Shown in pieces: positions 6,522 through 28,579 of a stretch of 64,000 nt of DNA. The notes under the pieces were generated by a model. It was not told the origin of the DNA and did no database searches. It saw nothing but the letters and a program-made list of their open reading frames with translations. The position numbers and the translations under genes are program-made. The stretch spans positions 512 to 64,511 of IMG/VR virus record IMGVR_UViG_3300043568_002650. One strand, 5' to 3'. This DNA comes from a virus. Lineage: Duplodnaviria; Heunggongvirae; Uroviricota; Caudoviricetes. Position 1 is the stretch's first letter; every line of letters begins with the position of its first letter.

Positions 6522-7826
6522 ATGCTCCATACAGAAGACTTTCGAGAACTCCGAGAATTTGTCAATGAGATGAATTCGTCTAATTCTACTAATCATAAAG
6601 TAGAAGTCCTTACGAAATACCAATATCATCCATTTATTAAACGAGTCCTATTCTATACGTATCATCCGTATTGGAATTTTGGATTAACCTCAGCCAATCT
6701 TAAAAAGCGCGAAGATCTTATTGCACCATCTGAAGTGTATGATGATCTCTTCTTAATGCTTGATGATTTTAATGAGCGGCATATGACTGGTCACTCTGCA
6801 ATTGAGGCAATGAATCGCTTTATTAAAGATTATGAAGCATGGTCTGACCTAATTTATCAAATAATTGATCGTAACCTTGAGACCCGAGCAACAGTTACCT
6901 TAATCAATCGAGTTAATCCCAAGTTTATTCCAACTTTTGATGTTGCCTTGGCTCATGATGCAGCTAAAGTAAAAGGTGTCAATATTTTTGATGGTACCTG
7001 GTTTGTTTCCAGAAAATTGGATGGAGTGCGATGTATCTGCTTTGTTCATGGTGATGATGTGAGATTCTTTTCACGTAATGGTAAAGAGTTCCTGACCTTA
7101 GGAAAGGTAGCAGAGGAAATTAGACGCTTAGGGATCACTGACCTAGTATTGGATGGTGAATTATGTCTCATGAATGAAGATGGCTCAGATGACTTCCAGG
7201 GAATCCTGAAACAAATACAACGTAAGGACCATACTATTGAGAATCCAAGATACCAAATCTTTGATATCCTGCAGGCTGGCGAATTTGCAGGTGATGATGA
7301 GTCTCCTCTATTTTCTACCCGAATCGATTGTAGAGAACACTGGTTAGGCGACTTAAAATCATCAACTATCTTGGAGATGCTGCCTCAAGTCAGAATTAAA
7401 GATGAGGATGCTCTAGAGGAATTAAAAGCTCAATCTAAAGATTCTAATTGGGAAGGACTAATTGCTCGACGAGATACCAACTATTCTTCAGGTCGGTCAA
7501 AACACATGCTTAAGATCAAAGAGTTTTTTGATGCTGAATATGTTGTTACTGGCTTGATTATGGGACCACAAAGGGTGATCGTTAATGGTAAAGAGGTTGA
7601 GGAGGACATGTTAAGTGCAGTCACAATAGATCATAAAGGTTCTCAAGTTCAAGTAGGAAGTGGTTTCACCATAGAACAACGTCGTCACTATTACCGAAAT
7701 ATTGGAGAGATTATGGGAGCAACGATTACAGTTCAATACTTCGAGGAAACAACTGATCAGCATGGCAATAATTCCCTAAGATTTCCAGTATTTAAAGGGA
7801 ACCATGGAAAAACTCGTAGTATATAA
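6522..7826 (+). CDS. lig: ATP-dependent DNA ligase
   Basis: KLDGVR adenylation motif, LDGEL, EGLIAR, LKIKEFFDAE, VGSGFT, LRFPVF. Confidence 0.95.
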   Translation: MLHTEDFRELREFVNEMNSSNSTNHKVEVLTKYQYHPFIKRVLFYTYHPYWNFGLTSANLKKREDLIAPSEVYDDLFLMLDDFNERHMTGHSAIEAMNRFIKDYEAWSDLIYQIIDRNLETRATVTLINRVNPKFIPTFDVALAHDAAKVKGVNIFDGTWFVSRKLDGVRCICFVHGDDVRFFSRNGKEFLTLGKVAEEIRRLGITDLVLDGELCLMNEDGSDDFQGILKQIQRKDHTIENPRYQIFDILQAGEFAGDDESPLFSTRIDCREHWLGDLKSSTILEMLPQVRIKDEDALEELKAQSKDSNWEGLIARRDTNYSSGRSKHMLKIKEFFDAEYVVTGLIMGPQRVIVNGKEVEEDMLSAVTIDHKGSQVQVGSGFTIEQRRHYYRNIGEIMGATITVQYFEETTDQHGNNSLRFPVFKGNHGKTRSI

Positions 7827-9844: not shown

Positions 9845-10004
9845 AAAGCCTCTTCCTTGTAATTTTGATCACAATGGGGAGTGTCTCATTTGCGATTGCT
9901 GGCCTGAAAACTGTGCATACACCAGATATTTGCAGGAAGACTATAAGTGGGAAACTAAAGAAGAACTAGAAGAAATGTTTAAGGACTATGAACAACCTCG
10001 ATAA
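9795..10004 (+). CDS. small Cys-rich hypothetical protein
   Basis: C..H..ECLICDCWPENC; true start probably downstream. Confidence 0.5.
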   Translation: MIRILDYMTNFHMEKNKKPLPCNFDHNGECLICDCWPENCAYTRYLQEDYKWETKEELEEMFKDYEQPR

Positions 10005-11322
10005 ACAATATCAAACACTACTCCAAACAATACTTGATTATGGTATTGAAAAAGGAGATAGAACAGGCACCGGAACCAAATCTATTTTTGGTTATACGAT
10101 TCGCCATAATATGAAGGAGGGATTCCCTCTTATCACAACTAAGAAGATGCCATTCCGTCTTATAGCAACCGAACTGATATGGTTCCTACGTGGTGATACA
10201 AACATTAAATTTCTTGTTGATAATGATTGTCATATTTGGGATGGTGATGCGTATAAGAACTATCTTAAAAATTGGAAACCCCAACCAATTATAGAAACAC
10301 AATCCTATTTGATAGAACAGGAGTATGTGAATGATAGACCACTACCAAAAGATATGTTTATTCATTGTATCAAAACAGATGATGAGTTTGCTAAGAAATG
10401 GGGTGATTTAGGTCCTGTGTATGGAGCACAATGGAGAGCTTGGGGAGGATATGATAGGATTCCATCTGGATATAATCATGGTTCAATAACCCATTTCAAA
10501 GAAGTACCTAAACATGACCAACTCGCAAACCTAATCAGTGACCTTAAGACAAACCCAGACTCAAGACGTTTGATGGTTACTGCTTGGAATCCTGCAGAAT
10601 TAGACCAAATGGTATTACCACCTTGTCATTATGGATTTCAAGTTTATACAAGAGAGTTGAGTTTGAAAGAGAGAATGAATTTATGTAAAGAACGATGGGA
10701 GGATATTGATGATGGACAACCTATGTTACCATCTGATATTGAATATTTTATGAATAATGAATGGAATATCCCAACCAGAGCAATCTCTTTAATGTGGAAT
10801 CAACGCTCAGTAGATACATTCTTAGGTTTACCATTCAACATTGCATCTTATGGATTGTTATTAGAAATCATTGCTAAATCAGTTAATATGGTTCCTGATG
10901 AATTGATTGGTAACTTAGGTGATACACATTTATATTCAAATCATATTGAACAAGCAAAAGAACAGATTGGTAGAGAGTTAACACACGAAGAGAGGCATGA
11001 AATGTTAAAAGTTGCAATGGGACCTTTAAGATACCAATCTGCAGTAGACGAACAAATGCCATTTGGTGGAGGTCTCTCTGAATACTATGAGTCTTATAAG
11101 ATTCCATATTACAGCAGAGAACCATATCCACTACCAACCTTAAACATCAACACTGAGTTTTGGCCAACAGAATCTGGAGAATGTGGAGAAGGACCGATTG
11201 ATGCTACTGCAGTATTTAATGGGTTTAGCAATGAACACTTCTGTAAATGTTTACTTGAAGAAGATTTACAATTAGGTAACTATCAATCACACGCACATAT
11301 TAAAGCTCCACTATCAAATTAA
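9988..11322 (+). CDS. thyA: thymidylate synthase ThyA with insertions
   Basis: DRTGTGT, ELIWFLRG, LGPVYGAQWR, LPPCH, QRSVDTFLGLPFNIASY, GDTHLYSNH. Confidence 0.97.
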   Translation: MNNLDKQYQTLLQTILDYGIEKGDRTGTGTKSIFGYTIRHNMKEGFPLITTKKMPFRLIATELIWFLRGDTNIKFLVDNDCHIWDGDAYKNYLKNWKPQPIIETQSYLIEQEYVNDRPLPKDMFIHCIKTDDEFAKKWGDLGPVYGAQWRAWGGYDRIPSGYNHGSITHFKEVPKHDQLANLISDLKTNPDSRRLMVTAWNPAELDQMVLPPCHYGFQVYTRELSLKERMNLCKERWEDIDDGQPMLPSDIEYFMNNEWNIPTRAISLMWNQRSVDTFLGLPFNIASYGLLLEIIAKSVNMVPDELIGNLGDTHLYSNHIEQAKEQIGRELTHEERHEMLKVAMGPLRYQSAVDEQMPFGGGLSEYYESYKIPYYSREPYPLPTLNINTEFWPTESGECGEGPIDATAVFNGFSNEHFCKCLLEEDLQLGNYQSHAHIKAPLSN

Positions 11323-15717: not shown

Positions 15718-15832
15718 AGTCAGGTGGTGGAATGGTAAAGCACCTGGTGAGCGGTAAATGGTAGGGAGTCATGACCTGAGAGTATACGTTAAGTCTTGCC
15801 ATGAGATGCAGGTTCGACCCCTGTCCTGACTA
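15718..15832 (+). ncRNA. AGTCAGG-family tRNA-like RNA C
   Basis: same acceptor, D and T arms; 115 nt, no canonical anticodon arm. Confidence 0.65.
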
Positions 15833-15894: not shown

Positions 15895-16016
15895 AGTTAG
15901 GTGGTGAAATGGTAGACCGCCCCTTCTCATCAAAGGGGAGATGGAGTTCGAATCTCTGAAGTTGAGTAAAATCAACGAGTATAGTACTATTACAGGTTCG
16001 AATCCTGTCCTGACTA
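15895..16016 (+). ncRNA. AGTCAGG-family tRNA-like RNA D (CAT loop, multi-arm variable region)
   Basis: CCCCTT-CTCATCA-AAGGGG arm, second TTCGAAT loop, canonical T arm. Confidence 0.65.
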
Positions 16017-17127: not shown

Positions 17128-17346
17128 ATGGAGACAACCGTAATTAAAAAAGAGCTTTATAAACAAAAGCCTATTGCAAAATTAAAATTCATCAGATTAG
17201 GAGTAGCTTATTATTCAGCCCCAATTGAACATGAAAGTAAAACAGTAGATATTGAATTTCAAGTTCCAATTACAGACATGGGAGATACTGATTTTTATCC
17301 ATTAATGGATGCAAAATTATTAAACAGATACATCACAAACCTTTAA
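17128..17346 (+). CDS. hypothetical protein inside tRNA array
   Basis: 72 aa ORF with A-rich leader. Confidence 0.7.
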   Translation: METTVIKKELYKQKPIAKLKFIRLGVAYYSAPIEHESKTVDIEFQVPITDMGDTDFYPLMDAKLLNRYITNL

Positions 17347-17399
17347 AAAAATCCAAAGATTATGGAAAGTGACAAGAGCGACAAGAGTCGCAAACGAGA

Positions 17400-17474
17400 G
17401 ATCTCGTAGCTCAGTTGGTTTAGAGCACCTCACTTTTAATGAGGGAGTCGTGGGTTCGAGCCCCACCGGGATCA
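17400..17474 (+). tRNA. trnK: tRNA-Lys(TTT)
   Basis: cloverleaf, loop CTTTTAA. Confidence 0.95.
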
Positions 17475-17478
17475 CACA

Positions 17479-17600
17479 TGGGGAAGAATGCAAAACAATT
17501 CGCTCTTTTGCCGTTCTTCAGCAATGATAGTAATTAAAGAGTTTCATCGCAATTAAACAGTAAATTTAATGATTTGGCCCTAAGAAGCCCTTCCCCACCA
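17479..17600 (+). ncRNA. candidate CCA-ending structured RNA upstream of TROVE gene
   Basis: TGGGGAAG/CTTCCCCA stem then CCA; AATGCAAAA shared with the 19759 RNA. Confidence 0.5.
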
Positions 17601-17667
17601 ATTCAATAAACACAAATTTGTATCAATAAACTAGTCCTGTTTATTGTAACAAAAATGAGTTTATTAT

Positions 17668-17740
17668 GCACCTTTAGCTCAGCTGGTAGAGCGCTTGTTT
17701 TACATGCAAGATGTCACAGGTTCGATCCCTGTAGGGTGTA
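17668..17740 (+). tRNA. trnV: tRNA-Val(TAC)
   Basis: cloverleaf, loop TTTACAT. Confidence 0.95.
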
Positions 17741-17839
17741 CAAAACCTTTTTCGAAAAAAGTTTAAGCAAAAAGTGAAACTATCAGTTTTTATATTGTAT
17801 AGTATTAATCACAAAACAAAAAATTAATTCCTTGTACTA

Positions 17840-19468
17840 ATGACAAAGTTTAGAAACGACAAACTTCGTTCGACGCTAGCTGGAATGCAGCCTCAAGCGA
17901 ATCTGGTAGAAGCGGTGAAAATCCCAAAACCAGACACTAAGAATCGTCAAGGACATGCAGCTTATTCACAAGATAAGTGGCTTAGACTCTTGACGATGTT
18001 AAACACACTAAAGCTAGAAAATCAATTCTATCGTTCTGAGACAGAAACGATGAGGGAGTTGAAAGGACTAGTCGATGAGTGTGCAAAAGAAGACGCTTAC
18101 TTCGTAGCTCAATCTATCGTGTATTCACGATGTGTTGGTGAAGGAATGAGATCAATTAACCACCTTGCGGCAAGCTACCTAGCTCCACACTGTGCGGGTC
18201 AAGAATGGGCAAAACGTTTCTATTCCCTATGGAACAAACGTACTCAATCCGGAGGAACATTATTTCGTCCAGATGATATGGCTGAAATCGTTGCATGCTT
18301 CTCAGCATTAAACGGGACTAAAGTCACAAATGCAATGAAAAAAGGATTTGCTGATGCTCTTGAAAACTTAGATGCTTATGCATTACTAAAATACAAGAGC
18401 TCTCTAGTTGACGTAATCAACTTAGTTCACCCAAATCCATCAGCGTCTAGTGCAGTAGCAGAGGTAAATGGAGAAAAAGTTCCAGTTCTTTCGGCTATCA
18501 TGAAAGGCTTATCAGTATCTGCGGATACTTGGGAAGTTGCTCAGTCTGATGCAGGTCAAGAAGTTGCGAAAGCAGTTAAAGAAGGTAAAATCGACAAGTC
18601 AGAAGCTGAAACTATCCTAAAGGAAGCTAAGGCTGAAAACTGGGATGCTCTTTTAACTGACGGTAAACTTGGAATCCTAGCTGCTCTTCGAAATATTAGA
18701 AATGTATTGAAGACAGTTAACAAAGGAGACACGGTTACTAAATTGACTGCTCTTTTATCTAGTCCAGATGCAATCCGAAAAGGAAAGATTATGCCATACC
18801 AAATTGACCTAGCTCACGAGGTAACGATCTCAGAATTCTCTGATTCTAATGCTAGAGCGATTGCACAAGCATTACTTAAAGGATATGAAGCAGCTGTGCC
18901 AAACCTTTCAGAGATGCTTCCTGGTAAGACTCTAGTAATGGTGGATTTCTCTGGATCAATGGGTACACCAATGACGGATGGCGCAAGAAGCGGAAAACGT
19001 TATACTAGTCGATGCATGGATAAAGCGGCTTTGATCGCAGCAACCATTGCAAAGGCAACAAATGGAGATGTAATCCGATTTGGTTCAAGTGCTGAATACG
19101 TAAAATGGAACGCTAACTCTGATGTATTCTCTATTGCTAGCGCAATGAAGAGAGATATGGGAGGAACTAACTTATCAGCAGCATGGGCAGTAGCTCAAAT
19201 GTCTGGACGTCAGTACGACCGAGTGTTCATCTTATCTGATAATGAGTGTAACCGTGGAAACTCTTACAAAGCATACGAGACATACACAAAAGCATGCGGA
19301 AGCCCATACGTTTACTCGGTGGATCTAGCAGCTTACGGAACGACTCAACTTGCTGGAGATAAAGTTCGTTTCTACTATGGATACGGATACTCAATGTTCG
19401 ATGATATCGCAAAAAGCGAGTTCAATCCAAATTATCACTTAGAGAAAGTTCGCAAGATCAAAATCTAA
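17840..19468 (+). CDS. rsr: TROVE/vWA RNA-binding protein (Ro60/Rsr family)
   Basis: helical TROVE-like region (LKYKSSLVDVINLVHP, ALRNIRN, IMPYQI) and vWA MIDAS VDFSGSM...GGTNL...FILSDNE. Confidence 0.85.
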   Translation: MTKFRNDKLRSTLAGMQPQANLVEAVKIPKPDTKNRQGHAAYSQDKWLRLLTMLNTLKLENQFYRSETETMRELKGLVDECAKEDAYFVAQSIVYSRCVGEGMRSINHLAASYLAPHCAGQEWAKRFYSLWNKRTQSGGTLFRPDDMAEIVACFSALNGTKVTNAMKKGFADALENLDAYALLKYKSSLVDVINLVHPNPSASSAVAEVNGEKVPVLSAIMKGLSVSADTWEVAQSDAGQEVAKAVKEGKIDKSEAETILKEAKAENWDALLTDGKLGILAALRNIRNVLKTVNKGDTVTKLTALLSSPDAIRKGKIMPYQIDLAHEVTISEFSDSNARAIAQALLKGYEAAVPNLSEMLPGKTLVMVDFSGSMGTPMTDGARSGKRYTSRCMDKAALIAATIAKATNGDVIRFGSSAEYVKWNANSDVFSIASAMKRDMGGTNLSAAWAVAQMSGRQYDRVFILSDNECNRGNSYKAYETYTKACGSPYVYSVDLAAYGTTQLAGDKVRFYYGYGYSMFDDIAKSEFNPNYHLEKVRKIKI

Positions 19469-19480
19469 ATAAAAAATAAG

Positions 19481-19564
19481 ATTGCTGGGTGGCAAGTTAC
19501 AGAGTTACTTCTTTATATCTGAAACATAAAACCAAAATACTCTCGACAGTATTCCCCCAGCAAT
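19481..19564 (+). ncRNA. Y-RNA-like RNA 1 (minimal)
   Basis: 9-bp ATTGCTGGG/CCCAGCAAT stem, interrupted helix, TTACTTC motif, 13 nt after TROVE stop. Confidence 0.6.
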
Positions 19565-19571
19565 TTTTTAT

Positions 19572-19675
19572 AGTCAGGTGGCGGAATGGTAGACGCTACA
19601 TTAATGGGTGGATAGTGTGCCATTGGGGAAGAACCATAAAAGTTACACATATGGGTTCGATTCCTGTCCTGACTA
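19572..19675 (+). ncRNA. AGTCAGG-family tRNA-like RNA B
   Basis: near-copy of 15448-15551 with compensatory GCGT/ACGC to GTGT/ACAC change. Confidence 0.7.
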
Positions 19676-19696
19676 CAAAAAAATATTAAGAATAAT

Positions 19697-19728
19697 TTTA
19701 AACGTAAAAGGATTCTTAGTATTATAAT
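19697..19728 (+). promoter_or_regulatory. middle-class promoter TTTAA(A/T)-N19-20-TATAAT (also 13173, 13687, 59434, 60679)
   Basis: five + strand copies with AGTATTATA(A/G) core and near-constant spacing. Confidence 0.6.
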
Positions 19729-19758
19729 CAAGTAAACAAGTTCTTTGAAAAAAATTAA

Positions 19759-19889
19759 TTATCGGGTAGTAATGCAAAAGGTTACTTCTTAGCTCAGCGG
19801 TTGAGCAATTTTCTTAAACAAAATAGGCCGCGGGTTCAATTCCCGCAGAAGCGCGAAAGCGTTACACCTTTGCAACTTTCTCCTGATAA
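19759..19889 (+). ncRNA. Y-RNA-like RNA 2 with embedded tRNA-like cloverleaf
   Basis: TTATCGGG/CCTGATAA stem, bulged TGCAAAAGGT/ACCTTTGCA helix, D arm, CTTAAAC loop, T arm. Confidence 0.7.
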
Positions 19890-19895
19890 ACTTAT

Positions 19896-20034
19896 TAAAG
19901 GTAATAGTAATCTAAACCGTTACTTCGTCTGTTAAACGAGAGGTCGTTGGTTCGAATCCAACATGGGGAGTAATCTTCATTAGCTCAGCTGGCTAGAGCG
20001 CTAAAATCTCGGTTGGAAACTTTCTTTACCTTTA
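19896..20034 (+). ncRNA. Y-RNA-like RNA 3 with circularly permuted tRNA-Asn(GTT)
   Basis: TAAAGGTAA/TTACCTTTA stem; order: anticodon arm, T arm, ATGGGGA-GTAA-TCTTCAT closed acceptor, D arm. Confidence 0.75.
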
Positions 20035-20040
20035 TCATTT

Positions 20041-20245
20041 GGAAGATATTCCCTCAGTTATGAGCTAATAGCAGTTTATTCTAGTTTCCTATAAAACTAG
20101 AGGTGCTGTTGACTGGGGCCAGAATCAGTTAATGCCTTTTTAGAGAGCGAAGAGTTTGGAAGCGAAGCTCTACCTTTGATCAGATGCTAGCATGAAGATC
20201 AAGCATAAGAGGCCGGAAGATGGAATGTAAGCCGGCCTCTTTTTT
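20041..20245 (+). ncRNA. candidate structured ncRNA ending in a GC hairpin plus U tract
   Basis: TCTAGTTT/AAACTAGA, TTGACTG/CAGTTAA, TTGATC/GATCAA, AAGAGGCCGG/CCGGCCTCTT. Confidence 0.4.
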
Positions 20246-20259
20246 AAAATCAATTTATT

Positions 20260-20338
20260 GGAGTGTTGAGCATTTGGCTGGCTCGCTTGACTGTAAATCA
20301 AGTCCTAACGGCATGGGGGTTCGAATCCCTTCACTCCA
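20260..20338 (+). tRNA. trnY: tRNA-Tyr(GTA)
   Basis: variable arm, loop CTGTAAA. Confidence 0.92.
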
Positions 20339-20341
20339 ACG

Positions 20342-20478
20342 AAAGATAGTGGCCTTCTCTGTCGATGCTGTCGACAAGCTAAGCAGATCAAAGAATTTCA
20401 TCACCCTTTGCTGAGGCCTCATTAAAACTCAGGAAGCAATTAAGATTGGAGCGAGACGGGTACTCCATCACTATCTTT
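20342..20478 (+). ncRNA. candidate structured spacer ncRNA
   Basis: perfect 10-bp AAAGATAGTG/CACTATCTTT closing stem with internal hairpins. Confidence 0.55.
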
Positions 20479-20614: not shown

Positions 20615-21271
20615 ATGGCAAGAAAGGAACATCAATATCATTACATTTACAAGACTACTTGTAATGTTACTGGAAGATATTACATCGGGATGCACTCGAC
20701 TTCTAACTTAGAAGATAGATATATTGGAAGCGGGACTAGATTATGGAAGTCACTCAATAAACATGGAAAGGAGAATCATTCAATTGAAATATTAGAATGG
20801 TATTCAGATAGAAATTCATTGAAACTAAGAGAAAAAGAATTAGTTAATGAGGAAACTCTTAATGATCCAATGTGTATGAATTTAATGATTGGTGGAGGAG
20901 GTGGAAAAATATCAGACGAGCAACAAAGGTCTAGATCAATCACTGGAGGTCGTGCATTTGCTAATAAATTAAAAAGTGATCCTGAGTTATTAAAACACGT
21001 TCAAATGATTGCATCAAATAACTTGAAAAAATTACATGAGAAAGGAGATTTCAATTATAATACTTTTCAAGGAAAGACGCATTCCGATGAGACTAAAAAT
21101 AAAATTGGAGCAGCAAATTCAATTAAGCAGAGTGGATATAATAATTCACAATATGGAACTTGTTGGATAACTAATGAAATTGATTCTAAGAAAATTCATA
21201 AGGGCGATCTTATCCCAAGTGGATGGAGATTAGGTCGAAAAGCCCTCAAAATAAGAAGTCGTAACTCCTAG
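20615..21271 (+). CDS. GIY-YIG homing endonuclease with NUMOD3-like motif (Seg-like)
   Basis: YIYKTTCNVTGRYYIGMHST...YIGSG; GKTHSDETKNKIG. Confidence 0.88.
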   Translation: MARKEHQYHYIYKTTCNVTGRYYIGMHSTSNLEDRYIGSGTRLWKSLNKHGKENHSIEILEWYSDRNSLKLREKELVNEETLNDPMCMNLMIGGGGGKISDEQQRSRSITGGRAFANKLKSDPELLKHVQMIASNNLKKLHEKGDFNYNTFQGKTHSDETKNKIGAANSIKQSGYNNSQYGTCWITNEIDSKKIHKGDLIPSGWRLGRKALKIRSRNS

Positions 21272-22598: not shown

Positions 22599-24278
22599 TT
22601 GGCACCTTTTCATATATTTGCAAAGAAAAATGCAAAGAAACTTTCAAATTTTAAAGTAGGAGTTAGCCTACGAATAAAGATAAAATTAGCAATTGCTGCA
22701 ATTCTAATGATTGCATATATGTGCGTTAAAATTTCAATTCTTGCTGGATTGCGTGAGTCTACTGAGGTTACTCGATGGATAGAATTTGTTGGTGTTATTT
22801 CATATATTCTAATATCAATCCTATTAATTAAAGACTTTATCAATTTAACTAAACATTCAGTATCTAAGGAATCTATTGATAAGATGAGTGAGTTAGAAAA
22901 TTTCTTAGACTCTTCGTCAATTATATCTAAGGCTGATGCTAAAGGTAAAATTACTTATGTAAATGATAAATTCACTAAGGTTTCTGGTTACTCACTAGAA
23001 GAAGTGCTTGGAAAAGATCACTCTATTGTAAATTCAGGAGATCAACCTGATGGATATTGGGGAAAAATGTATGCTCAAGTTCTTACTGGAAAAATATGGA
23101 ATGATGTAGTCACAAATAGAGCAAAGGATGGCTCTCTATATTATGTAGATACTTATATCAAAGCTCAATTTAATCAGCATGGTAAGCTTGAAGGATTTAT
23201 GTCGATTCGCCAAGATGTTACTGAGCTACGAAGAAGGGAGGCTGAGATATCTAATAGAATGAATGCAATTAATAGATCAAATGCTGTTATTGAATTTGAC
23301 CTAGATGGAAATATTAAATTTGCAAACGATTTATTTTTAAAAACATTAGGCTACTCCTTAAATAGTGAAATTATAGGAAAACACCATAGTTTATTTGTTG
23401 AAGATGAAGTAATAGATACTGATGAATATCGAGACTTTTGGAAAACATTGGGCACTGGCAAATTCTTTATGGGAGAGATCACTCGAAAGAAGAAAGACGG
23501 ATCACTAATCTATCTTCAAGCAACATATAATCCTATTATAGGCACTGATGGAAAGCCATATCGAGTAATGAAAATCGCTACTGATATTACTCAAAGTTTT
23601 AATCAACAAGCTGAAATTGAAAAGAAGAATACTTATCTTGAGCATGCGGCAAAGATTCTACGGCATGATATGCATAGTGGAATCAATACCTATATGCCTC
23701 GAGGATTATCATCACTAGAACGAAGACTTTCAGATGACCAGATAAAAGAGCTTAAGATTGAAGCTCCACTAAAAATGATTAAAGAAGGATTACGACACAC
23801 TCAAAAAGTATATAAAGGAGTTTACGAATTTACTAATCTAGTAAAAAAGGATGTTGTTCTTACTCGCGAAGACTTAAATCTCAAAGACATACTCGAGGAC
23901 TATTTGTCCTCGACTGCATATAGACCGCAAGTAATAATCTCAGATCTAGGTCAGTCTAGTGTTAATGAAGCATTATTTTGTACTTCATTAGATAATCTTA
24001 TTCGTAATGGTTTAAAGTATAATGACAGTCCTAGTAAACTAGTTAAGATATACCGTATTGATGATATTCTTTATGTTGAAGACAATGGACGCGGTTTAAG
24101 CCAAGAAGATTTTAACCATCTTTCCAAACCATATACACGAAAAGAAGGACAGCAGGAATCAGGAACTGGTCTTGGGCTTAATATCTGTATTGCAATTCTT
24201 GAAGAACATGGATTCTCTATTACTTGTTCTAAACTTTCACAAGTTGGAACGCAAATGAAAATACGACTAAGCAGATAA
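22599..24278 (+). CDS. PAS/PAC sensor histidine kinase
   Basis: 2 TM helices, two PAS-PAC units, H box RHDMHSG, N box DNLIRNGLKY, G1 EDNGRG, G2 GTGLGL. Confidence 0.92.
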   Translation: MAPFHIFAKKNAKKLSNFKVGVSLRIKIKLAIAAILMIAYMCVKISILAGLRESTEVTRWIEFVGVISYILISILLIKDFINLTKHSVSKESIDKMSELENFLDSSSIISKADAKGKITYVNDKFTKVSGYSLEEVLGKDHSIVNSGDQPDGYWGKMYAQVLTGKIWNDVVTNRAKDGSLYYVDTYIKAQFNQHGKLEGFMSIRQDVTELRRREAEISNRMNAINRSNAVIEFDLDGNIKFANDLFLKTLGYSLNSEIIGKHHSLFVEDEVIDTDEYRDFWKTLGTGKFFMGEITRKKKDGSLIYLQATYNPIIGTDGKPYRVMKIATDITQSFNQQAEIEKKNTYLEHAAKILRHDMHSGINTYMPRGLSSLERRLSDDQIKELKIEAPLKMIKEGLRHTQKVYKGVYEFTNLVKKDVVLTREDLNLKDILEDYLSSTAYRPQVIISDLGQSSVNEALFCTSLDNLIRNGLKYNDSPSKLVKIYRIDDILYVEDNGRGLSQEDFNHLSKPYTRKEGQQESGTGLGLNICIAILEEHGFSITCSKLSQVGTQMKIRLSR

Positions 24279-24886
24279 TGACAAAAATCCTTCACTTATT
24301 CTTCTTTCTTTTTTTATCATTTTTATCATACACACAAAATGACTACCCAGTTCAAACTGTTTTGAAAGGTGATTCTGTGGTAATCTATACAGTTGAGCAA
24401 AATAATGATATAGAGTTTCTTTTAGCAAACCAGAGAAACCGTGTAAACTATTTTAAAAATAATATTGCTAGACAAGAAGAGATTATTGATAGTCTAAATC
24501 GGCTAGTACAAAAGCAAAAACTTTTTGCTGACAGTTTACAGCTGATCCTAAACACAAATTCTAGTGATTATGATAGTTTATATGCAAAGTATCGCAATAC
24601 AGAAAAATGGCTTTATAATACAGCAGTTGACAATGCATTTATTTATTATTCATTTGAAAACTCTGCAGTCATGGCTATTGATTTAACCTCATATGTTTTA
24701 GTAGGTTATAAAAGATCTGGTAATTTTTTATTAGCACGCAGAGGACCAGTGTATGATGATCTGTACTGGAAAGAGTATAATCGAAACTACCCAAGTGAGC
24801 CTAACAACGATTGGCTTACCTTTTACAAAATACGTTGGAGGCCTTCGTTAGTGCAGTTTCCTTATCGAATAAACCCACAGCCATGA
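24278..24886 (+). CDS. exported hypothetical protein with coiled coil
   Basis: signal-peptide-like N-terminus MTKILHLFFFLFLSFLSYTQ. Confidence 0.75.
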   Translation: MTKILHLFFFLFLSFLSYTQNDYPVQTVLKGDSVVIYTVEQNNDIEFLLANQRNRVNYFKNNIARQEEIIDSLNRLVQKQKLFADSLQLILNTNSSDYDSLYAKYRNTEKWLYNTAVDNAFIYYSFENSAVMAIDLTSYVLVGYKRSGNFLLARRGPVYDDLYWKEYNRNYPSEPNNDWLTFYKIRWRPSLVQFPYRINPQP

Positions 24887-26331
24887 AAAAACTACTTATC
24901 ACAGCAATATTAATACTATTTGGTATTAGTTTTACAAGCGCTCAATACTCTGTAAAAGATCAAGAGAAAAAAATTGTTTGGGTTAGCGGCATACCTACCT
25001 GTCCAAGTGATCCACAAATAACGGCCTTAATCGAAAAAGCTGGACTTGAAAACTTAAAAAAGCCTAAAAAAGGAATTACTAGAGCTGAATCTAATACTTG
25101 TCGGGAACTCGGTAAAGTGTTTAACCAAAGGGAAATGTATGAAGGTGCAGATTGGTATCTAGAGAGAGTGAAAGGTTATGTTGAAGTTATTAATTTAGCA
25201 CCTGATGCAGTATTTGAAATGCCAAAGGAAATTGAGGAAATGCCATTATCCGAAGATAATGTAAAATCATTAGAGTCAGATAAAGCATTCTTAGAAAATC
25301 TCCCACAAAGCTACGATGACGTTTCCCCTAATGACATGAAAAAACTTGCTAGTGAAATTGGAAATAAACTAAAAGCTCTAATTGCAGAAAAGGAAGCTCT
25401 ACTCACAAGTCATGCTCCGCAAGAAGTAATCGACGTAAAGGACGCTACTATTGGAACTCTTGGAAAAGAGAAAAAAATTATCGATCTATCAATTAAAAAA
25501 GATGGATTGGAAGTTGAAGTTGATGACTTAGAAGTTGAAAAGAAAACTTTGACCAAATGGTTATGGTTGTCATGTGCAAGTATATTAGTCGCTTTCTTAG
25601 GGATCATTGCACTACTTCAAAGAAAAACAATTAAAGTAAAAGACGGTGAGATTGAAAGACAGCTGGCAGATATTAATAAAAAGAATACTTATTTAGAATA
25701 TGCGGCACGAATCATTCGTCATGATATGCATAGCGGAATCAATACTTATATGCCTCGAGGATTAAGTGGTTTACAAAAGCGAATTACTCCAGAGATTATT
25801 GCCGAACTTAAAATTGGATCCTCTATACAAATGATACAAGAAGGTCTTTTACATACACAAAAAGTTTATAAAAATGTTTATGAATTTACTAATCTTGTAA
25901 AGGTGAAATCTGAGTTTAATAAAGTGGAAATTGATGCTAAAATCTCATTAGAAAAGTACTTATCAAGCACATCGTATAGTAAACAAGTAAAGATTTTAGA
26001 TCTCGGTACACTATTAGCAAATGAACAATTGTTATGTAATGCTATAGATAATTTAATTAAGAATGGACTTAAATATAATGACCACACGATCAGAACAATC
26101 AAAATATATAAATTAAAAGATTTTATTATTGTTGAAGATAACGGCAAAGGTCTTACCTCTCAAAAATTTGAAGAGTACGTGAAAAGAGGAGTAGATATTG
26201 AAGCTGAAACAGGATTAGGTTTAGGGATTGCGAAAGCAATTATTGAAGAGCATGGATTTAAGCTATCCTGTGAAGAAATACCTTCAGGTGGAACAAAAAT
26301 GAAAATTAAAATAACAAATAATAATGATTGA
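24883..26331 (+). CDS. membrane sensor histidine kinase
   Basis: start MKKLLITAIL (signal peptide), one TM helix, RHDMHSG H box, DNLIKNGLKY, EDNGKG, GLGLGI. Confidence 0.9.
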   Translation: MKKLLITAILILFGISFTSAQYSVKDQEKKIVWVSGIPTCPSDPQITALIEKAGLENLKKPKKGITRAESNTCRELGKVFNQREMYEGADWYLERVKGYVEVINLAPDAVFEMPKEIEEMPLSEDNVKSLESDKAFLENLPQSYDDVSPNDMKKLASEIGNKLKALIAEKEALLTSHAPQEVIDVKDATIGTLGKEKKIIDLSIKKDGLEVEVDDLEVEKKTLTKWLWLSCASILVAFLGIIALLQRKTIKVKDGEIERQLADINKKNTYLEYAARIIRHDMHSGINTYMPRGLSGLQKRITPEIIAELKIGSSIQMIQEGLLHTQKVYKNVYEFTNLVKVKSEFNKVEIDAKISLEKYLSSTSYSKQVKILDLGTLLANEQLLCNAIDNLIKNGLKYNDHTIRTIKIYKLKDFIIVEDNGKGLTSQKFEEYVKRGVDIEAETGLGLGIAKAIIEEHGFKLSCEEIPSGGTKMKIKITNNND

Positions 26332-27751: not shown

Positions 27752-28579
27752 ATGTTACTAAAGAAAGGATCCTCTGGAGAGGACGTAAAAAGACTTCAGA
27801 TAAAATTAGGCCTTACTCCAGATGCGGGTGTTGCACAGTTTGGTCCAAAGACGGAATCCGCTGTTAAATCATGGCAAAAAGCAAATGGTTTAGAAGATGA
27901 TGGTATAGTAGGTGATACTACTTGGGGAAAACTATTTGGTGTAACTGATCAGATCACAGATGCAGTTACTCAAGTTCAAGGTCTTGCTCTAGATAAACTA
28001 AAGGGGCATATTGCAGAGGTAGTATTTCAACAAATCGCAGGAGTATGTAAGGCATTTAATATTACAAATAATTTAAGACTAGCTCATTTTCTTGCACAGT
28101 GTTCACATGAATCAGGTGGATTTAAAGCAGTGAGTGAAAACTTAAATTACTCAGCAGATGGACTAAAGAAAATATTTCCAAAATATTTTCCAGGAAACCT
28201 AAATGAGTCATATGCAAGACAACCTGAAAAGATTGCAAGCAGAGTCTATGGCGGTCGTATGGGAAATGGTGATGAGTCAACTAAGGAAGGTTACAAGTTT
28301 AGAGGTCGCGGATATATCCAATTAACTGGTAAAAGCAATTATGAAACATTTACTAAATTTATTGGCGAAGACTGTATTGCTAATCCTGACCTAGTTGCAA
28401 CAAAATATCCATTAGCATCAGCTGCATTCTTCTTTAATAAAAATGGACTATGGTCAATTTGTGATAAAGGAGCAGATGACACGACTGTTACTGCTGTGAC
28501 TAAAAGAGTAAACGGTGGAACGATTGGATTAGCGGATCGTATTAAACACTTTAAGGAATATTATAATCTACTTAAGTAA
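27752..28579 (+). CDS. endolysin: PG-binding domain plus GH19 glycosidase
   Basis: LKKGSSGEDVKRLQ..FGPKTESAVKSWQ..DGIVG; AHFLAQCSHESGGF; FRGRGYIQLTG; VTKRVNGG. Confidence 0.93.
   Translation: MLLKKGSSGEDVKRLQIKLGLTPDAGVAQFGPKTESAVKSWQKANGLEDDGIVGDTTWGKLFGVTDQITDAVTQVQGLALDKLKGHIAEVVFQQIAGVCKAFNITNNLRLAHFLAQCSHESGGFKAVSENLNYSADGLKKIFPKYFPGNLNESYARQPEKIASRVYGGRMGNGDESTKEGYKFRGRGYIQLTGKSNYETFTKFIGEDCIANPDLVATKYPLASAAFFFNKNGLWSICDKGADDTTVTAVTKRVNGGTIGLADRIKHFKEYYNLLK

What the first reader, a model, noticed from the sequence alone, without database searches (positions are those of the whole stretch)
17479..20034. Phage Ro60/TROVE protein with a family of Y-RNA-like RNAs inside the tRNA array
Seen: a 542-aa TROVE/vWA gene followed by three RNAs (19481, 19759, 19896) with one shared architecture: terminal stem, internal loop (5' T(A/G)G(T/C)AA, 3' pyrimidine-rich ACTTTCT/AGTATTC), bulged helix, conserved TTACTTC, then a variable tRNA-derived domain showing anticodon-like loops CTGAAAC, CTTAAAC and CTGTTAA. 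Known: bacterial Rsr binds Y RNAs, YrlA mimics tRNA, and rsr is often linked to RNA repair induced by tRNA damage. Inference: a phage RNP system with interchangeable tRNA-mimic modules that decoys, senses or repairs targets of anticodon nucleases, or redirects host nucleases. The putative Ro site differs from the canonical bulged-C helix, so this may be a new Y-RNA class. Best candidate for an undescribed system here.
Basis: partly seen in the sequence, partly recalled or inferred. Interest (0 to 1): 0.9.

Follow-up and report, generated by a model that had tools for sequence, protein, structure and literature searches.

The report
Phage Ro60 gene with three Y-RNAs
A large uncultured lake phage encodes a Ro60-type RNA-binding ring protein followed by three small RNAs that share one conserved docking stem, two of them carrying tRNA look-alikes; the pairing is a known kind (Ro60 with Y RNAs), here as an expanded, uncatalogued phage variant of untested function.

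Summary
ORF 17840-19468 is a Ro60/TROVE-vWA protein by Pfam, by a PDB profile search (phage phiLo Ro60, E 1e-24) and by fold. Three RNAs follow it: 19482-19563, 19759-19889 and 19897-20033. They share an 8-bp terminal stem, a conserved UAGYAA/AAYWUUCU segment, a 7-9-bp helix and an invariant UUACUUC.

A covariance model built only from short relatives finds exactly these three in the 128.5-kb record. It gives 83 hits in 32 other loci, all on the TROVE strand. Covariation is strong.

RNA3 is YrlA-like (permuted tRNA body) with an added anticodon arm. RNA2 holds a natural-order cloverleaf whose acceptor end is capped. RNA1 is a short YrlB-like RNA with no tRNA module.

Anticodon-like loops keep U33 and R37, but the triplet varies among orthologues, so these are mimics and not decoders.

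The handle is not a new Y-RNA class. It sits where YrlA carries GNCGAA, and UUACUUC recurs beside TROVE genes in Xanthomonas, Caulobacter, Gordonia and crAss phages.

Phage Ro60 with Y RNAs is published (2014, 2025), and this scan has seen such arrays on other DNA many times. The function (exonuclease adaptor or anti-defence decoy) is untested. No RtcB was found in the held half-genome.

The parts
17840..19468 (+). Ro60/TROVE-vWA protein gene (542 aa)
   Evidence: Pfam TROVE and vWA_Ro60. PHROG 850 'RNA-binding protein', E 3e-35. PDB profile hits: 9KOP phiLo Ro60 1e-24, 1YVP 8e-12, 2NVO 2e-7. AF2 model pLDDT 77, with the 13 best Foldseek hits all Ro60 structures. The MIDAS-type D369-x-S371-x-S373 is invariant in 13 homologues.
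19482..19563 (+). RNA1: short Y RNA (YrlB-like). Handle plus a small variable hairpin, no tRNA module. It starts 14 nt after the TROVE stop codon and is followed by T6 (19564-19569).
   Evidence: R1 75.5 bits, E 2e-14; RNA1 is a training member of R1. Fold z-score -4.2. Orthologues sit directly after TROVE in L001, L007, L009, L013, L020, L027 and L030. Pair counts on A4: 80.8% paired, against 37-49% when the partners are slid.
19759..19889 (+). RNA2: Y RNA whose handle encloses a natural-order cloverleaf. It has a 5-bp acceptor, D arm, anticodon-like arm ATTTT-CTTAAAC-AAAAT and T arm. The acceptor 3' strand runs straight into a GNRA-capped hairpin (CGC-GAAA-GCG).
   Evidence: R1 38.4 bits, E 7e-6; this type was not in the training set. 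In 14 orthologues, 16 of 28 alifold pairs show compensatory changes. ARAGORN and Rfam call its core a tRNA (19783-19854; 52.8 bits).
19897..20033 (+). RNA3: YrlA-type Y RNA. The handle encloses a circularly permuted tRNA body in the order anticodon-like arm (TTCGT-CTGTTAA-ACGAG), T arm, closed 7-bp acceptor hairpin, D arm.
   Evidence: Rfam YrlA partial match of 30 bits, E 3e-4, model positions 24-84. R1 39.5 bits, E 4e-6. My structure counted on 13 orthologues: 96.5% of cells paired, 19 of 37 pairs with compensatory change, 0 of 500 shuffles as high, slid controls 30-51%. The core is conserved as far as Xanthomonas phages and CcrColossus.

Best explanation
This is a phage Ro60/Y-RNA module.

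The TROVE-vWA ring protein (17840-19468) most likely binds the conserved handle of each of the three downstream RNAs. The handle consists of a terminal stem, the UAGYAA/AAYWUUCU segment, an inner helix and UUACUUC. This gives three RNPs.

By analogy with bacterial Rsr-YrlA/Yrn1-PNPase and with phage phiLo Ro60-Yrl-PNPase, the variable part acts as an adaptor. In RNA2 and RNA3 that part is a complete tRNA body, and it would present the RNP to host proteins that recognise tRNA shape. The first candidate is a 3'-5' exoribonuclease such as PNPase. RNase P, modification enzymes or tRNA-directed nucleases are also possible. The phage would use this to reshape RNA turnover or tRNA surveillance during infection.

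Shown here:
- The identity of the protein.
- The reality, structure and family membership of the RNAs.
- Their tight linkage to the gene, on the same strand.

Inferred: binding, the partner, and the benefit to the phage.

My odds:
- Ro60 plus genuine Y-type RNAs: about 0.85.
- These RNAs bind this protein: about 0.75.
- The exonuclease-adaptor reading specifically: about 0.35.
For: Protein: (Ro60 by sequence profile and by fold).

RNAs:
- Shared architecture in 109 instances, 98 of them distinct, with 65 different terminal-stem sequences that stay complementary.
- Covariation.
- Model R1, built from short-type RNAs only, recovers RNA2 and RNA3 and nothing else in the 128.5-kb record.

Linkage:
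- 83 of 83 R1 hits in 32 loci are on the TROVE strand.
- 19 of 19 hits in five whole contigs of 171-294 kb are on the TROVE strand and lie within 18 kb of the gene.
- No other conserved protein neighbour exists.
- The same handle lies next to TROVE genes in Xanthomonas, Caulobacter, Gordonia, crAss and a 635-kb phage.

Precedent:
- Rsr binds YrlA and YrlB, and Y RNA tethers PNPase (PMC4201824).
- phiLo Ro60 binds Yrl1 and Yrl2 and forms ternary complexes with host PNPase (PMC12135203).

Expression hint: contigs of four lake metatranscriptome runs cover 23-28 of 30 bins of the TROVE/RNA stretch, but only 5-7 of 30 bins of the next 20 kb.
Against: - There are no binding, transcript-end or processing data for this phage.
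- The RNA-library evidence comes from contigs of runs that were chosen because they hold this stretch, so it cannot show strand, ends or expression level.
- The host is unknown, so no PNPase partner can be named.
- Rfam YrlA reaches only 30 bits against a gathering score of 69. The CcrColossus Y RNAs also score only 30-42 bits.
- Nothing explains why the bodies keep full anticodon arms, which canonical YrlA lacks. A pure exonuclease-tether role would not obviously need them.
Confidence: 0.7

Rival explanations
1. Anti-defence decoy or sensor. The Ro60-bound RNAs display anticodon stem-loops that soak up, sense or redirect host anticodon nucleases or other tRNA-directed defences. Different paralogues would cover different isoacceptors.
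For: - 63 of 84 family members that have a T arm carry a 5-bp stem plus 7-nt loop at the exact anticodon position. U33 is kept in 57 of 63 and R37 in 62 of 63, yet there are at least 20 different triplets, which change between close orthologues.
- RNA3's loop CUGUUAA is conserved from this phage to Xanthomonas phages.
- The arrays gain and lose members quickly: a relative with 99% TROVE identity has 5 RNAs, this window has 3.
- The Ro60-like gp130 of phage Bas63, which also sits next to tRNA genes, counters the Ppl defence system (bioRxiv 10.1101/2024.10.10.617714).
Against: - Triplet variation fits relaxed constraint equally well.
- No anticodon nuclease or host is known for this phage.
- The triplets show no visible preference for the classic targets (Lys-UUU, or the QUN set).
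- RNA1-type and several other family members have no anticodon arm at all.
Confidence: 0.15
2. Caged or precursor tRNAs. The handle is a leader-trailer duplex of unusual pre-tRNAs. The tRNA bodies are released, or nicked by RNase P and given CCA, and then serve in translation. Ro60 acts as their chaperone or quality control.
For: - Some relatives enclose a full cloverleaf with a 7-bp acceptor stem (for example L001:6746-6882).
- Several permuted members carry N73-CCA directly after the acceptor 3' strand: L006:3835, L013:5666, L010:3812, L004:1982 and L010:3310 (read by eye).
- M. smegmatis YrlA, which has a 7-bp acceptor, is cut by RNase P and receives CCA in vivo (PMC4201824).
- The module sits inside a 25-gene tRNA array.
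Against: - The anticodon triplet changes among orthologues of one RNA, including the stop-reading triplets UUA and UCA. That is unlike decoding tRNAs.
- RNA2 has only a 5-bp acceptor, and its 3' strand continues into a conserved GNRA hairpin, so there is no free 3' end.
- RNA3's acceptor is a closed hairpin with a 4-nt loop.
- The phage already encodes ordinary tRNA-Leu(UAA), tRNA-Asn(GUU) and tRNA-Phe(GAA). The mimic bodies are no closer to those tRNAs than to any other tRNA.
Confidence: 0.07
3. The RNAs are unrelated to the protein. They would be tRNA pseudogenes, repeats of a mobile element, or terminator-like structures that merely accumulate in tRNA arrays.
For: - GIY-YIG and other homing endonuclease genes litter the same arrays.
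- RNA1 ends in a T-run and could help terminate the TROVE transcript.
Against: - The handle sequence is invariant while the stems covary. That indicates selection on an RNA, not decay.
- The handle RNAs accompany TROVE genes in phage lineages whose proteins share only 23-33% identity.
- Strand bias is 102 of 102.
Confidence: 0.05

Closest known systems
YrlA (Rfam RF02553) with Rsr/Ro60 in Salmonella Typhimurium, Mycobacterium smegmatis and mycobacteriophages (Chen et al. 2014, PMC4201824)
   Same: - An RNA gene lies next to a Ro60 gene.
- The 5' and 3' ends pair into a long stem that carries a conserved 5'-strand motif.
- The body is a permuted tRNA (T arm, closed acceptor, D arm), exactly as in RNA3.
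- A 7-bp acceptor, as in M. smegmatis YrlA, makes RNase P cleavage plausible.
- By the primer sequences in that paper, M. smegmatis YrlA begins ...UGGUGAUG... and contains CACUUC. That is the same two boxes in the same order (my inference).
   Different: - The motif is UAGYAA or UGGCAA, not GNCGAAN0-1G.
- There is an extra 8-bp terminal stem outside the motif.
- RNA3 adds a complete anticodon-like arm, which YrlA lacks.
- The Rfam score is 30 bits against a gathering score of 69.
- Relatives carry three to six paralogues per phage, against one or two.
Thermus phage phiLo Ro60 with Yrl1 and Yrl2 (PMC12135203; PDB 9KOP, 9L5Y)
   Same: - It is the closest solved relative of the protein (E 1e-24; Foldseek rank 1).
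- It is a phage-encoded Ro60 with adjacent Y-like RNAs of stem-bulge-stem form.
- RNA binding and ternary complexes with host PNPase have been shown in vitro.
   Different: - About 20% protein identity.
- The phiLo RNAs lie upstream of the gene, carry the CGAA motif, and are not described as carrying tRNA bodies.
- Here the RNAs lie downstream, inside a tRNA array.
Deinococcus radiodurans Yrn1 and S. Typhimurium / M. smegmatis YrlB
   Same: - Yrn1 has its D- and T-like elements in the opposite orientation to YrlA, plus a possible anticodon arm. That parallels RNA2's natural-order body.
- YrlB is a short second Ro60-bound RNA, which parallels RNA1.
   Different: - Yrn1's tRNA likeness is partial (6-nt loop, no V arm), whereas RNA2 is a near-complete cloverleaf.
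- Here both orientations share one handle within a single locus.
Bas63 (Felix O1-like) gp130, a Ro60-like protein next to tRNA genes that counters the Ppl defence (bioRxiv 10.1101/2024.10.10.617714)
   Same: - A phage Ro60-like gene abuts a tRNA array.
- The authors suggest that some annotated tRNAs there are really Y RNAs. Here ARAGORN likewise calls RNA2 a tRNA-Leu.
   Different: - The RNAs were not characterised in that work.
- No defence phenotype is known for the present phage.

Membership tests
Ro60 / TROVE (Rsr) proteins | TROVE (HEAT-repeat ring) domain recognisable by sequence | tested here: met
   Pfam PF05731 30.3 bits, above the cut-off of 23. A profile of 13 homologues hits 9KOP at 1e-24, 1YVP at 8e-12, 9NEN at 3e-9 and 2NVO at 2e-7.
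Ro60 / TROVE (Rsr) proteins | C-terminal vWA domain with a MIDAS motif | tested here: met
   PF25045 vWA_Ro60 scores 25.7 bits, just under its 27.7 cut-off. D369, S371 and S373 (DxSxS) are invariant in alignment A3. The AF2 model has an alpha/beta domain at 360-515 that matches vWA structures.
Ro60 / TROVE (Rsr) proteins | Overall ring fold like solved Ro60 structures | tested here: met
   Foldseek ranks 1-13 are all Ro60 structures (9KOP, 2NVO, 9L5Y, 1YVR, 1YVP, 9NEN and others). E values are 4e-14 to 9e-11 over 526-571 columns, with TM 0.39-0.63. The model is of moderate quality (pLDDT 77, pTM 0.60).
YrlA (RF02553) | Reaches the Rfam gathering score (69 bits) | tested here: not met
   RNA3 scores 30 bits, E 3e-4, and only over model positions 24-84. 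RNA1 and RNA2 give no hit. Calibration: the Y RNAs of CcrColossus score 42, 30.5 and 29.9 bits, and those of Xanthomonas phage Tabio score 52 and 37 bits. All are also below the cut-off.
YrlA (RF02553) | Permuted tRNA-like module in the order T arm, closed acceptor stem, D arm | tested here: met
   Met by RNA3. T arm 5 pairs (4 with compensatory change), acceptor 7 pairs (all 7 compensatory), D arm 4 invariant pairs. RNA2 has the natural order and RNA1 has no module, so for those two the feature is not met.
YrlA (RF02553) | GNCGAAN0-1G motif in the 5' strand of the terminal stem (putative Rsr site) | tested here: not met
   The same position carries UGGCAA(G) in RNA1 and UAGUAA in RNA2 and RNA3. 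Related phage lineages show intermediates: UGGCGUAG, UGGUGAAG, AUGCGAAG. This is a derived variant, not the canonical motif.
YrlA (RF02553) | Encoded next to, and bound by, a Ro60 orthologue | tested here: inconclusive
   Adjacency is met: the RNAs lie 14-430 nt downstream on the same strand, and this holds in 33 loci. Binding cannot be tested with these tools.
Functional tRNA (RF00005), applied to RNA2's core | 7-bp acceptor stem with a free 3' end, and an anticodon conserved among orthologues | tested here: not met
   The core scores 52.8 bits for model positions 3-68 only. The acceptor has 5 bp and then runs into a GNRA hairpin. The triplet varies among 14 orthologues: UAA, UUA, UCA, GCA, UUU, UUG, AUC.

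The most novel reading that the evidence does not exclude
The phage displays a rapidly diversifying panel of anticodon-bearing tRNA look-alikes on one Ro60 platform. The panel acts as bait for host tRNA-directed defence nucleases, absorbing or sensing them. Turnover of the anticodon triplet among close relatives would then record an arms race with those nucleases.
Probability: 0.12. Interest if true: 0.85.

Novelty: new variant of a known kind. Interest (0 to 1): 0.5.

Why it matters
Ro60 and Y RNAs are conserved from bacteria to humans, where Ro60 is a lupus and Sjogren autoantigen. What the RNA's effector module does is still unclear outside two or three bacteria.

This phage clade offers a natural experiment. 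One invariant handle carries many different bodies: none, a natural-order tRNA, or a permuted tRNA, with at least 20 anticodon-like triplets. That separates the protein-docking part of the RNA from the effector part.

It also points to cultured phages with the same handle in which binding, processing and anti-defence roles could be tested: Xanthomonas phage Tabio and its relatives, CcrColossus, and crAss001.

There is a practical consequence for annotation. Such RNAs are currently called tRNAs (RNA2 is called tRNA-Leu by ARAGORN), called small hypothetical CDSs (Gordonia phage Neville gp88-90 overlap them), or left blank.

Tried and rejected
- Rfam at gathering threshold found only tRNAs in the window. 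With E-value thresholds only a partial YrlA match appeared.
- RtcB (PF01139): no hit in the 128.5-kb record.
- The PF09414 hit is the ATP-dependent DNA ligase at 6522-7826, not an Rnl2.
- The PF09511 (Rnl1) search was uninformative, because nothing rang in any control genome. The record is only about 51% complete, so absence of repair genes proves little.
- I tested whether the mimic bodies are recent copies of the phage's own cognate tRNAs. They are not. RNA3 against tRNA-Asn is 67% identical, with a median of 63% over all tRNAs, and RNA2 gives similar figures.
- I looked for a conserved protein partner around TROVE in 34 loci. Only homing-endonuclease-like ORFs and an antisense artefact recur.
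- I considered pairing of TAGTAA with TTACT (a perfect 5 bp in this window) and rejected it. Most orthologues have TAGCAA, while TTACTTC never changes.
- R1 with default filters missed RNA3 in the window. With filters off it gave only a local 14.9-bit match. The genome search scored it at 39.5 bits over the full model. I rely on that run and on the RNA3 orthologue hits, and I flag the inconsistency.
- My control that used foreign 5' strands is inflated, because orthologues share stems. I therefore use the slid-partner controls instead.
- No protein-RNA complex prediction was possible with the tools offered.
Full report
**Setting**

The window is bases 512-64511 of a 128.5-kb IMG/VR virus record. 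CheckV rates it 51% complete, so the genome is probably a jumbo phage. Sequencing runs that hold the stretch are lake and freshwater metagenomes.

The window carries 25 tRNA genes between 13725 and 22553. The finding lies inside this array.

**The protein**

ORF 17840-19468 (+, 542 aa) is a Ro60 homologue. The evidence:
- It matches Pfam TROVE above the cut-off and vWA_Ro60 just below it.
- It matches PHROG 850 'RNA-binding protein' at 3e-35.
- A profile of 13 homologues (A3) hits the crystal structure of Thermus phage phiLo Ro60 (9KOP) at 1e-24. It also hits Xenopus Ro60 (1YVP) at 8e-12, human Ro60 (9NEN) at 3e-9 and Deinococcus Rsr (2NVO) at 2e-7.
- The AlphaFold2 model (pLDDT 77, pTM 0.60) has Ro60 structures as its 13 best Foldseek matches, over essentially its whole length.
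- The MIDAS-type DxSxS (D369, S371, S373) is invariant.

**The three RNAs**

The sequence and single-sequence folds (z-scores -4.2, -3.1, -2.2) give RNA1 at 19482-19563, RNA2 at 19759-19889 and RNA3 at 19897-20033.

All three share the same plan:
- an 8-bp terminal stem;
- a 5' segment U(A/G)GYAA facing a 3' segment AAYWUUC(U/C);
- an inner helix of 7-9 bp;
- then UUACUUC.

RNA1 starts 14 nt after the TROVE stop codon and is followed by T6.

**Relatives**

A protein-based scan of IMG/VR gave 33 loci whose TROVE proteins are 37-99% identical to this one.

In these loci plus the genome, the 5' half-motif T[AG]G[CT][AG]A-N6-13-NTACTTC occurs 127 times. Shuffles give 0-6. Nearly all occurrences are on the TROVE strand.

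For 109 instances (98 distinct) the full architecture is present:
- There are 65 different terminal-stem sequences, and each is complementary to its own partner.
- G3, A6 and the whole of UACUUC are invariant, as is the UUC of the 3' segment.
- Each phage has one to six copies within 4 kb of the gene, most of them three to six.

**Covariation**

Orthologue alignments show strong covariation.
- RNA2: 16 of 28 predicted pairs have compensatory changes.
- RNA3: my hand-drawn structure has 96.5% of cells paired and 19 of 37 pairs with compensatory change. No shuffle out of 500 is as high, and slid-partner controls give 30-51%.

**An independent test with a covariance model**

I built model R1 from 16 short-type RNAs only (A4). 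The structure counted on A4 is 80.8% paired, against 37-49% when the partners are slid.

Results with R1:
- In the whole 128.5-kb record it finds exactly three matches: RNA1 at 75.5 bits, RNA3 at 39.5 bits and RNA2 at 38.4 bits.
- In 32 other loci it gives 83 matches at E <= 0.01, all on the TROVE strand.
- In five whole contigs of 171-294 kb, all 19 matches are on the TROVE strand and lie within 18 kb of the gene.

Apart from homing-endonuclease-like ORFs, no protein gene is a conserved neighbour. The conserved unit is therefore TROVE plus the handle RNAs.

**What the variable bodies are**

- RNA1-type RNAs (74-92 nt) have only a small, non-conserved hairpin. In this window CTGAAAC sits in a 9-nt loop. 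I therefore do not accept it as tRNA-derived.
- RNA2 encloses a natural-order cloverleaf. Its acceptor has only 5 bp, and the 3' strand runs directly into a hairpin capped by GAAA, GCAA or GAGA that covaries among orthologues. No free 3' end exists.
- RNA3 is a permuted tRNA body, as in YrlA (T arm, closed 7-bp acceptor, D arm). It is preceded by a complete anticodon-like arm, and the loop-closing pair of that arm covaries (U-A, G-C, A-U).

Across the family, 63 of 84 RNAs with a T arm carry a 5-bp stem and a 7-nt loop at the correct tRNA position. U33 is kept in 57 of 63 and a purine at position 37 in 62 of 63. At least 20 different triplets occur.

Among 14 orthologues of RNA2 the triplet reads UAA, UUA, UCA, GCA, UUU, UUG or AUC. 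RNA3 mostly keeps GUU, with GAU in one orthologue and UCC in four.

A decoding tRNA would keep its anticodon. These bodies keep the shape and not the identity, so I read them as mimics. They are also not recent copies of the phage's own tRNA-Leu(UAA) or tRNA-Asn(GUU).

**Relation to known Y RNAs**

Chen et al. 2014 (PMC4201824) found YrlA RNAs next to Ro60 genes in more than 250 bacteria and phages. They described a 5' motif GNCGAAN0-1G as the likely Rsr site, and they showed that M. smegmatis YrlA (7-bp acceptor) is cut by RNase P and receives CCA.

The handle here is a derived form of that arrangement:
- RNA1 reads UGGCAAG, which is GGC(G)AAG.
- Other phage lineages show intermediates at the same position: UGGCGUAG in CcrColossus, UGGUGAAG in Xanthomonas phage Tabio, AUGCGAAG in Gordonia phage Neville, UAGUGUA in crAss001, and UAGUAA in the 635-kb phage LR745206.
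- In every one of these the motif is followed, one helix later, by (U/A/C)UACUUC.

Position 2 of the 5' segment covaries perfectly with position 8 of the 3' segment (A-U 91, G-C 7). G3 faces an invariant C, and A5 faces U. The 'internal loop' is therefore probably an irregular helix with a bulged U and a Y.U mismatch. It corresponds to the stem that Rfam draws through the GGCGA motif of YrlA.

So the site is not the metazoan bulged-C helix and not the canonical CGAA box. It is a lineage variant of the same element, not a new class.

The low Rfam score (30 bits against a gathering score of 69) is not decisive. The Y RNAs of CcrColossus, a phage cited in the literature as having Y RNAs, score only 30-42 bits, and those of Tabio score 37-52 bits.

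**Expression**

Contigs from four lake and freshwater metatranscriptome runs, from related strains at 90-99% identity, cover 23-28 of 30 bins of 17300-20400. They include a 2182-nt contig over TROVE plus RNA1, and short contigs at 19654-19900 and 19916-20034.

The same runs cover only 5-7 of 30 bins of the adjacent 20 kb. This argues against simple DNA carry-over. However, the runs were selected because they hold this stretch, and contigs give no ends, strand or expression level. I count this as a hint only.

**RNA repair**

No RtcB was found. The single PF09414 hit is a DNA ligase. The Rnl1 search was uninformative. Half the genome is missing, so the link to RNA repair remains open.

**Mechanism**

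The best-supported reading is an Ro60/Y-RNA particle. The protein docks on the invariant handle, and the tRNA-shaped body serves as the adaptor.

The published precedents are Rsr-Y RNA-PNPase in Deinococcus and Salmonella, and phiLo Ro60-Yrl-PNPase in vitro. Hijacking of a host exoribonuclease is therefore my first choice, at about 0.35.

The full anticodon arms and the fast turnover of triplets and of array membership keep the anti-defence decoy reading alive, at about 0.15. The report that the Ro60-like gp130 of Bas63 counters the Ppl system also supports it. On array turnover, L001 with 99% identical TROVE has five RNAs, against three in this window.

A precursor-tRNA reading fits a few relatives that have 7-bp acceptors or an encoded N73-CCA. 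It does not fit RNA2 or RNA3.

**Novelty**

The pairing is a known kind. I found the following in no paper searched:
- multi-copy arrays that share one handle;
- permuted and natural-order complete tRNA bodies coexisting on that one handle;
- variable anticodon-like triplets.

This scan has already met such phage Ro60 handle-RNA arrays on other DNA many times. One later check priced a bold functional reading at 6 in 100. I therefore class this as a new variant of a known kind, of moderate interest.

Noticed in passing
window 15718-15832, 15895-16016, 19572-19675: Three tRNA-like RNAs share one acceptor/D/T scaffold (AGTCAGG...TGGCGGAATGGTAGACGC...GGTTCGA..CCTGACTA, with a class-II Leu-like D arm). 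In place of the anticodon and variable region each has a different 44-60-nt insert. Rfam tRNA scores are 30-35 bits and ARAGORN calls none of them. Copies occur in L001, L003, L027, L028 and L029. In RNA-run contigs the central part of 19591-19654 is replaced by other letters. One copy lies between RNA1 and RNA2.
   Followed up: partly
L001:6029-6193 and L001:6746-6882, compared with window 20034-20258: A relative with 99% identical TROVE carries five handle RNAs where this window has three. It lacks the AGTCAGG-scaffold RNA between RNA1 and RNA2. The array therefore gains and loses members on a very short time scale.
   Followed up: partly
L006:3835-3985, L013:5666-5821, L010:3812-3971, L004:1982-2143, L010:3310-3466: In several permuted family members the acceptor 3' strand is followed by one base and then CCA, before the spacer that closes the 'acceptor loop'. 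This is what RNase P cleavage plus 3' trimming would need to produce a CCA end, as reported for M. smegmatis YrlA. I read it by eye and did not test it statistically.
   Followed up: no
window 17128-17346: A 72-aa ORF between tRNA-Pro and tRNA-Lys is similar to part of a 380-aa Sir2-family protein (Pfam SIR2, 1e-39) found at the same place in four related loci, for example L010:1014-2156. It is probably a remnant of that gene.
   Followed up: partly
window 20615-21271: A GIY-YIG / NUMOD3 homing-endonuclease gene sits inside the tRNA array. Homologues occur in 17 of the related loci.
   Followed up: partly
window 22599-24278 and 24811-26331: Two phage-encoded histidine-kinase-like proteins (a PAS-PAS-HATPase protein and a second HATPase protein) lie directly after the tRNA array and upstream of an endolysin at 27752-28579.
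   Followed up: no
window 9988-11322: The thymidylate synthase ORF is 444 aa. Residues 6-333 align to only profile positions 1-228 of 266, which suggests an insertion of about 100 aa.
   Followed up: no
L044 (Gordonia phage Neville) 2304-2714: The annotated small hypothetical CDSs gp88-gp90, upstream of the Ro-like gene, overlap four handle-type RNAs (AUGCG(A/U)AG ... UUACUUC). These CDS calls are probably wrong.
   Followed up: partly
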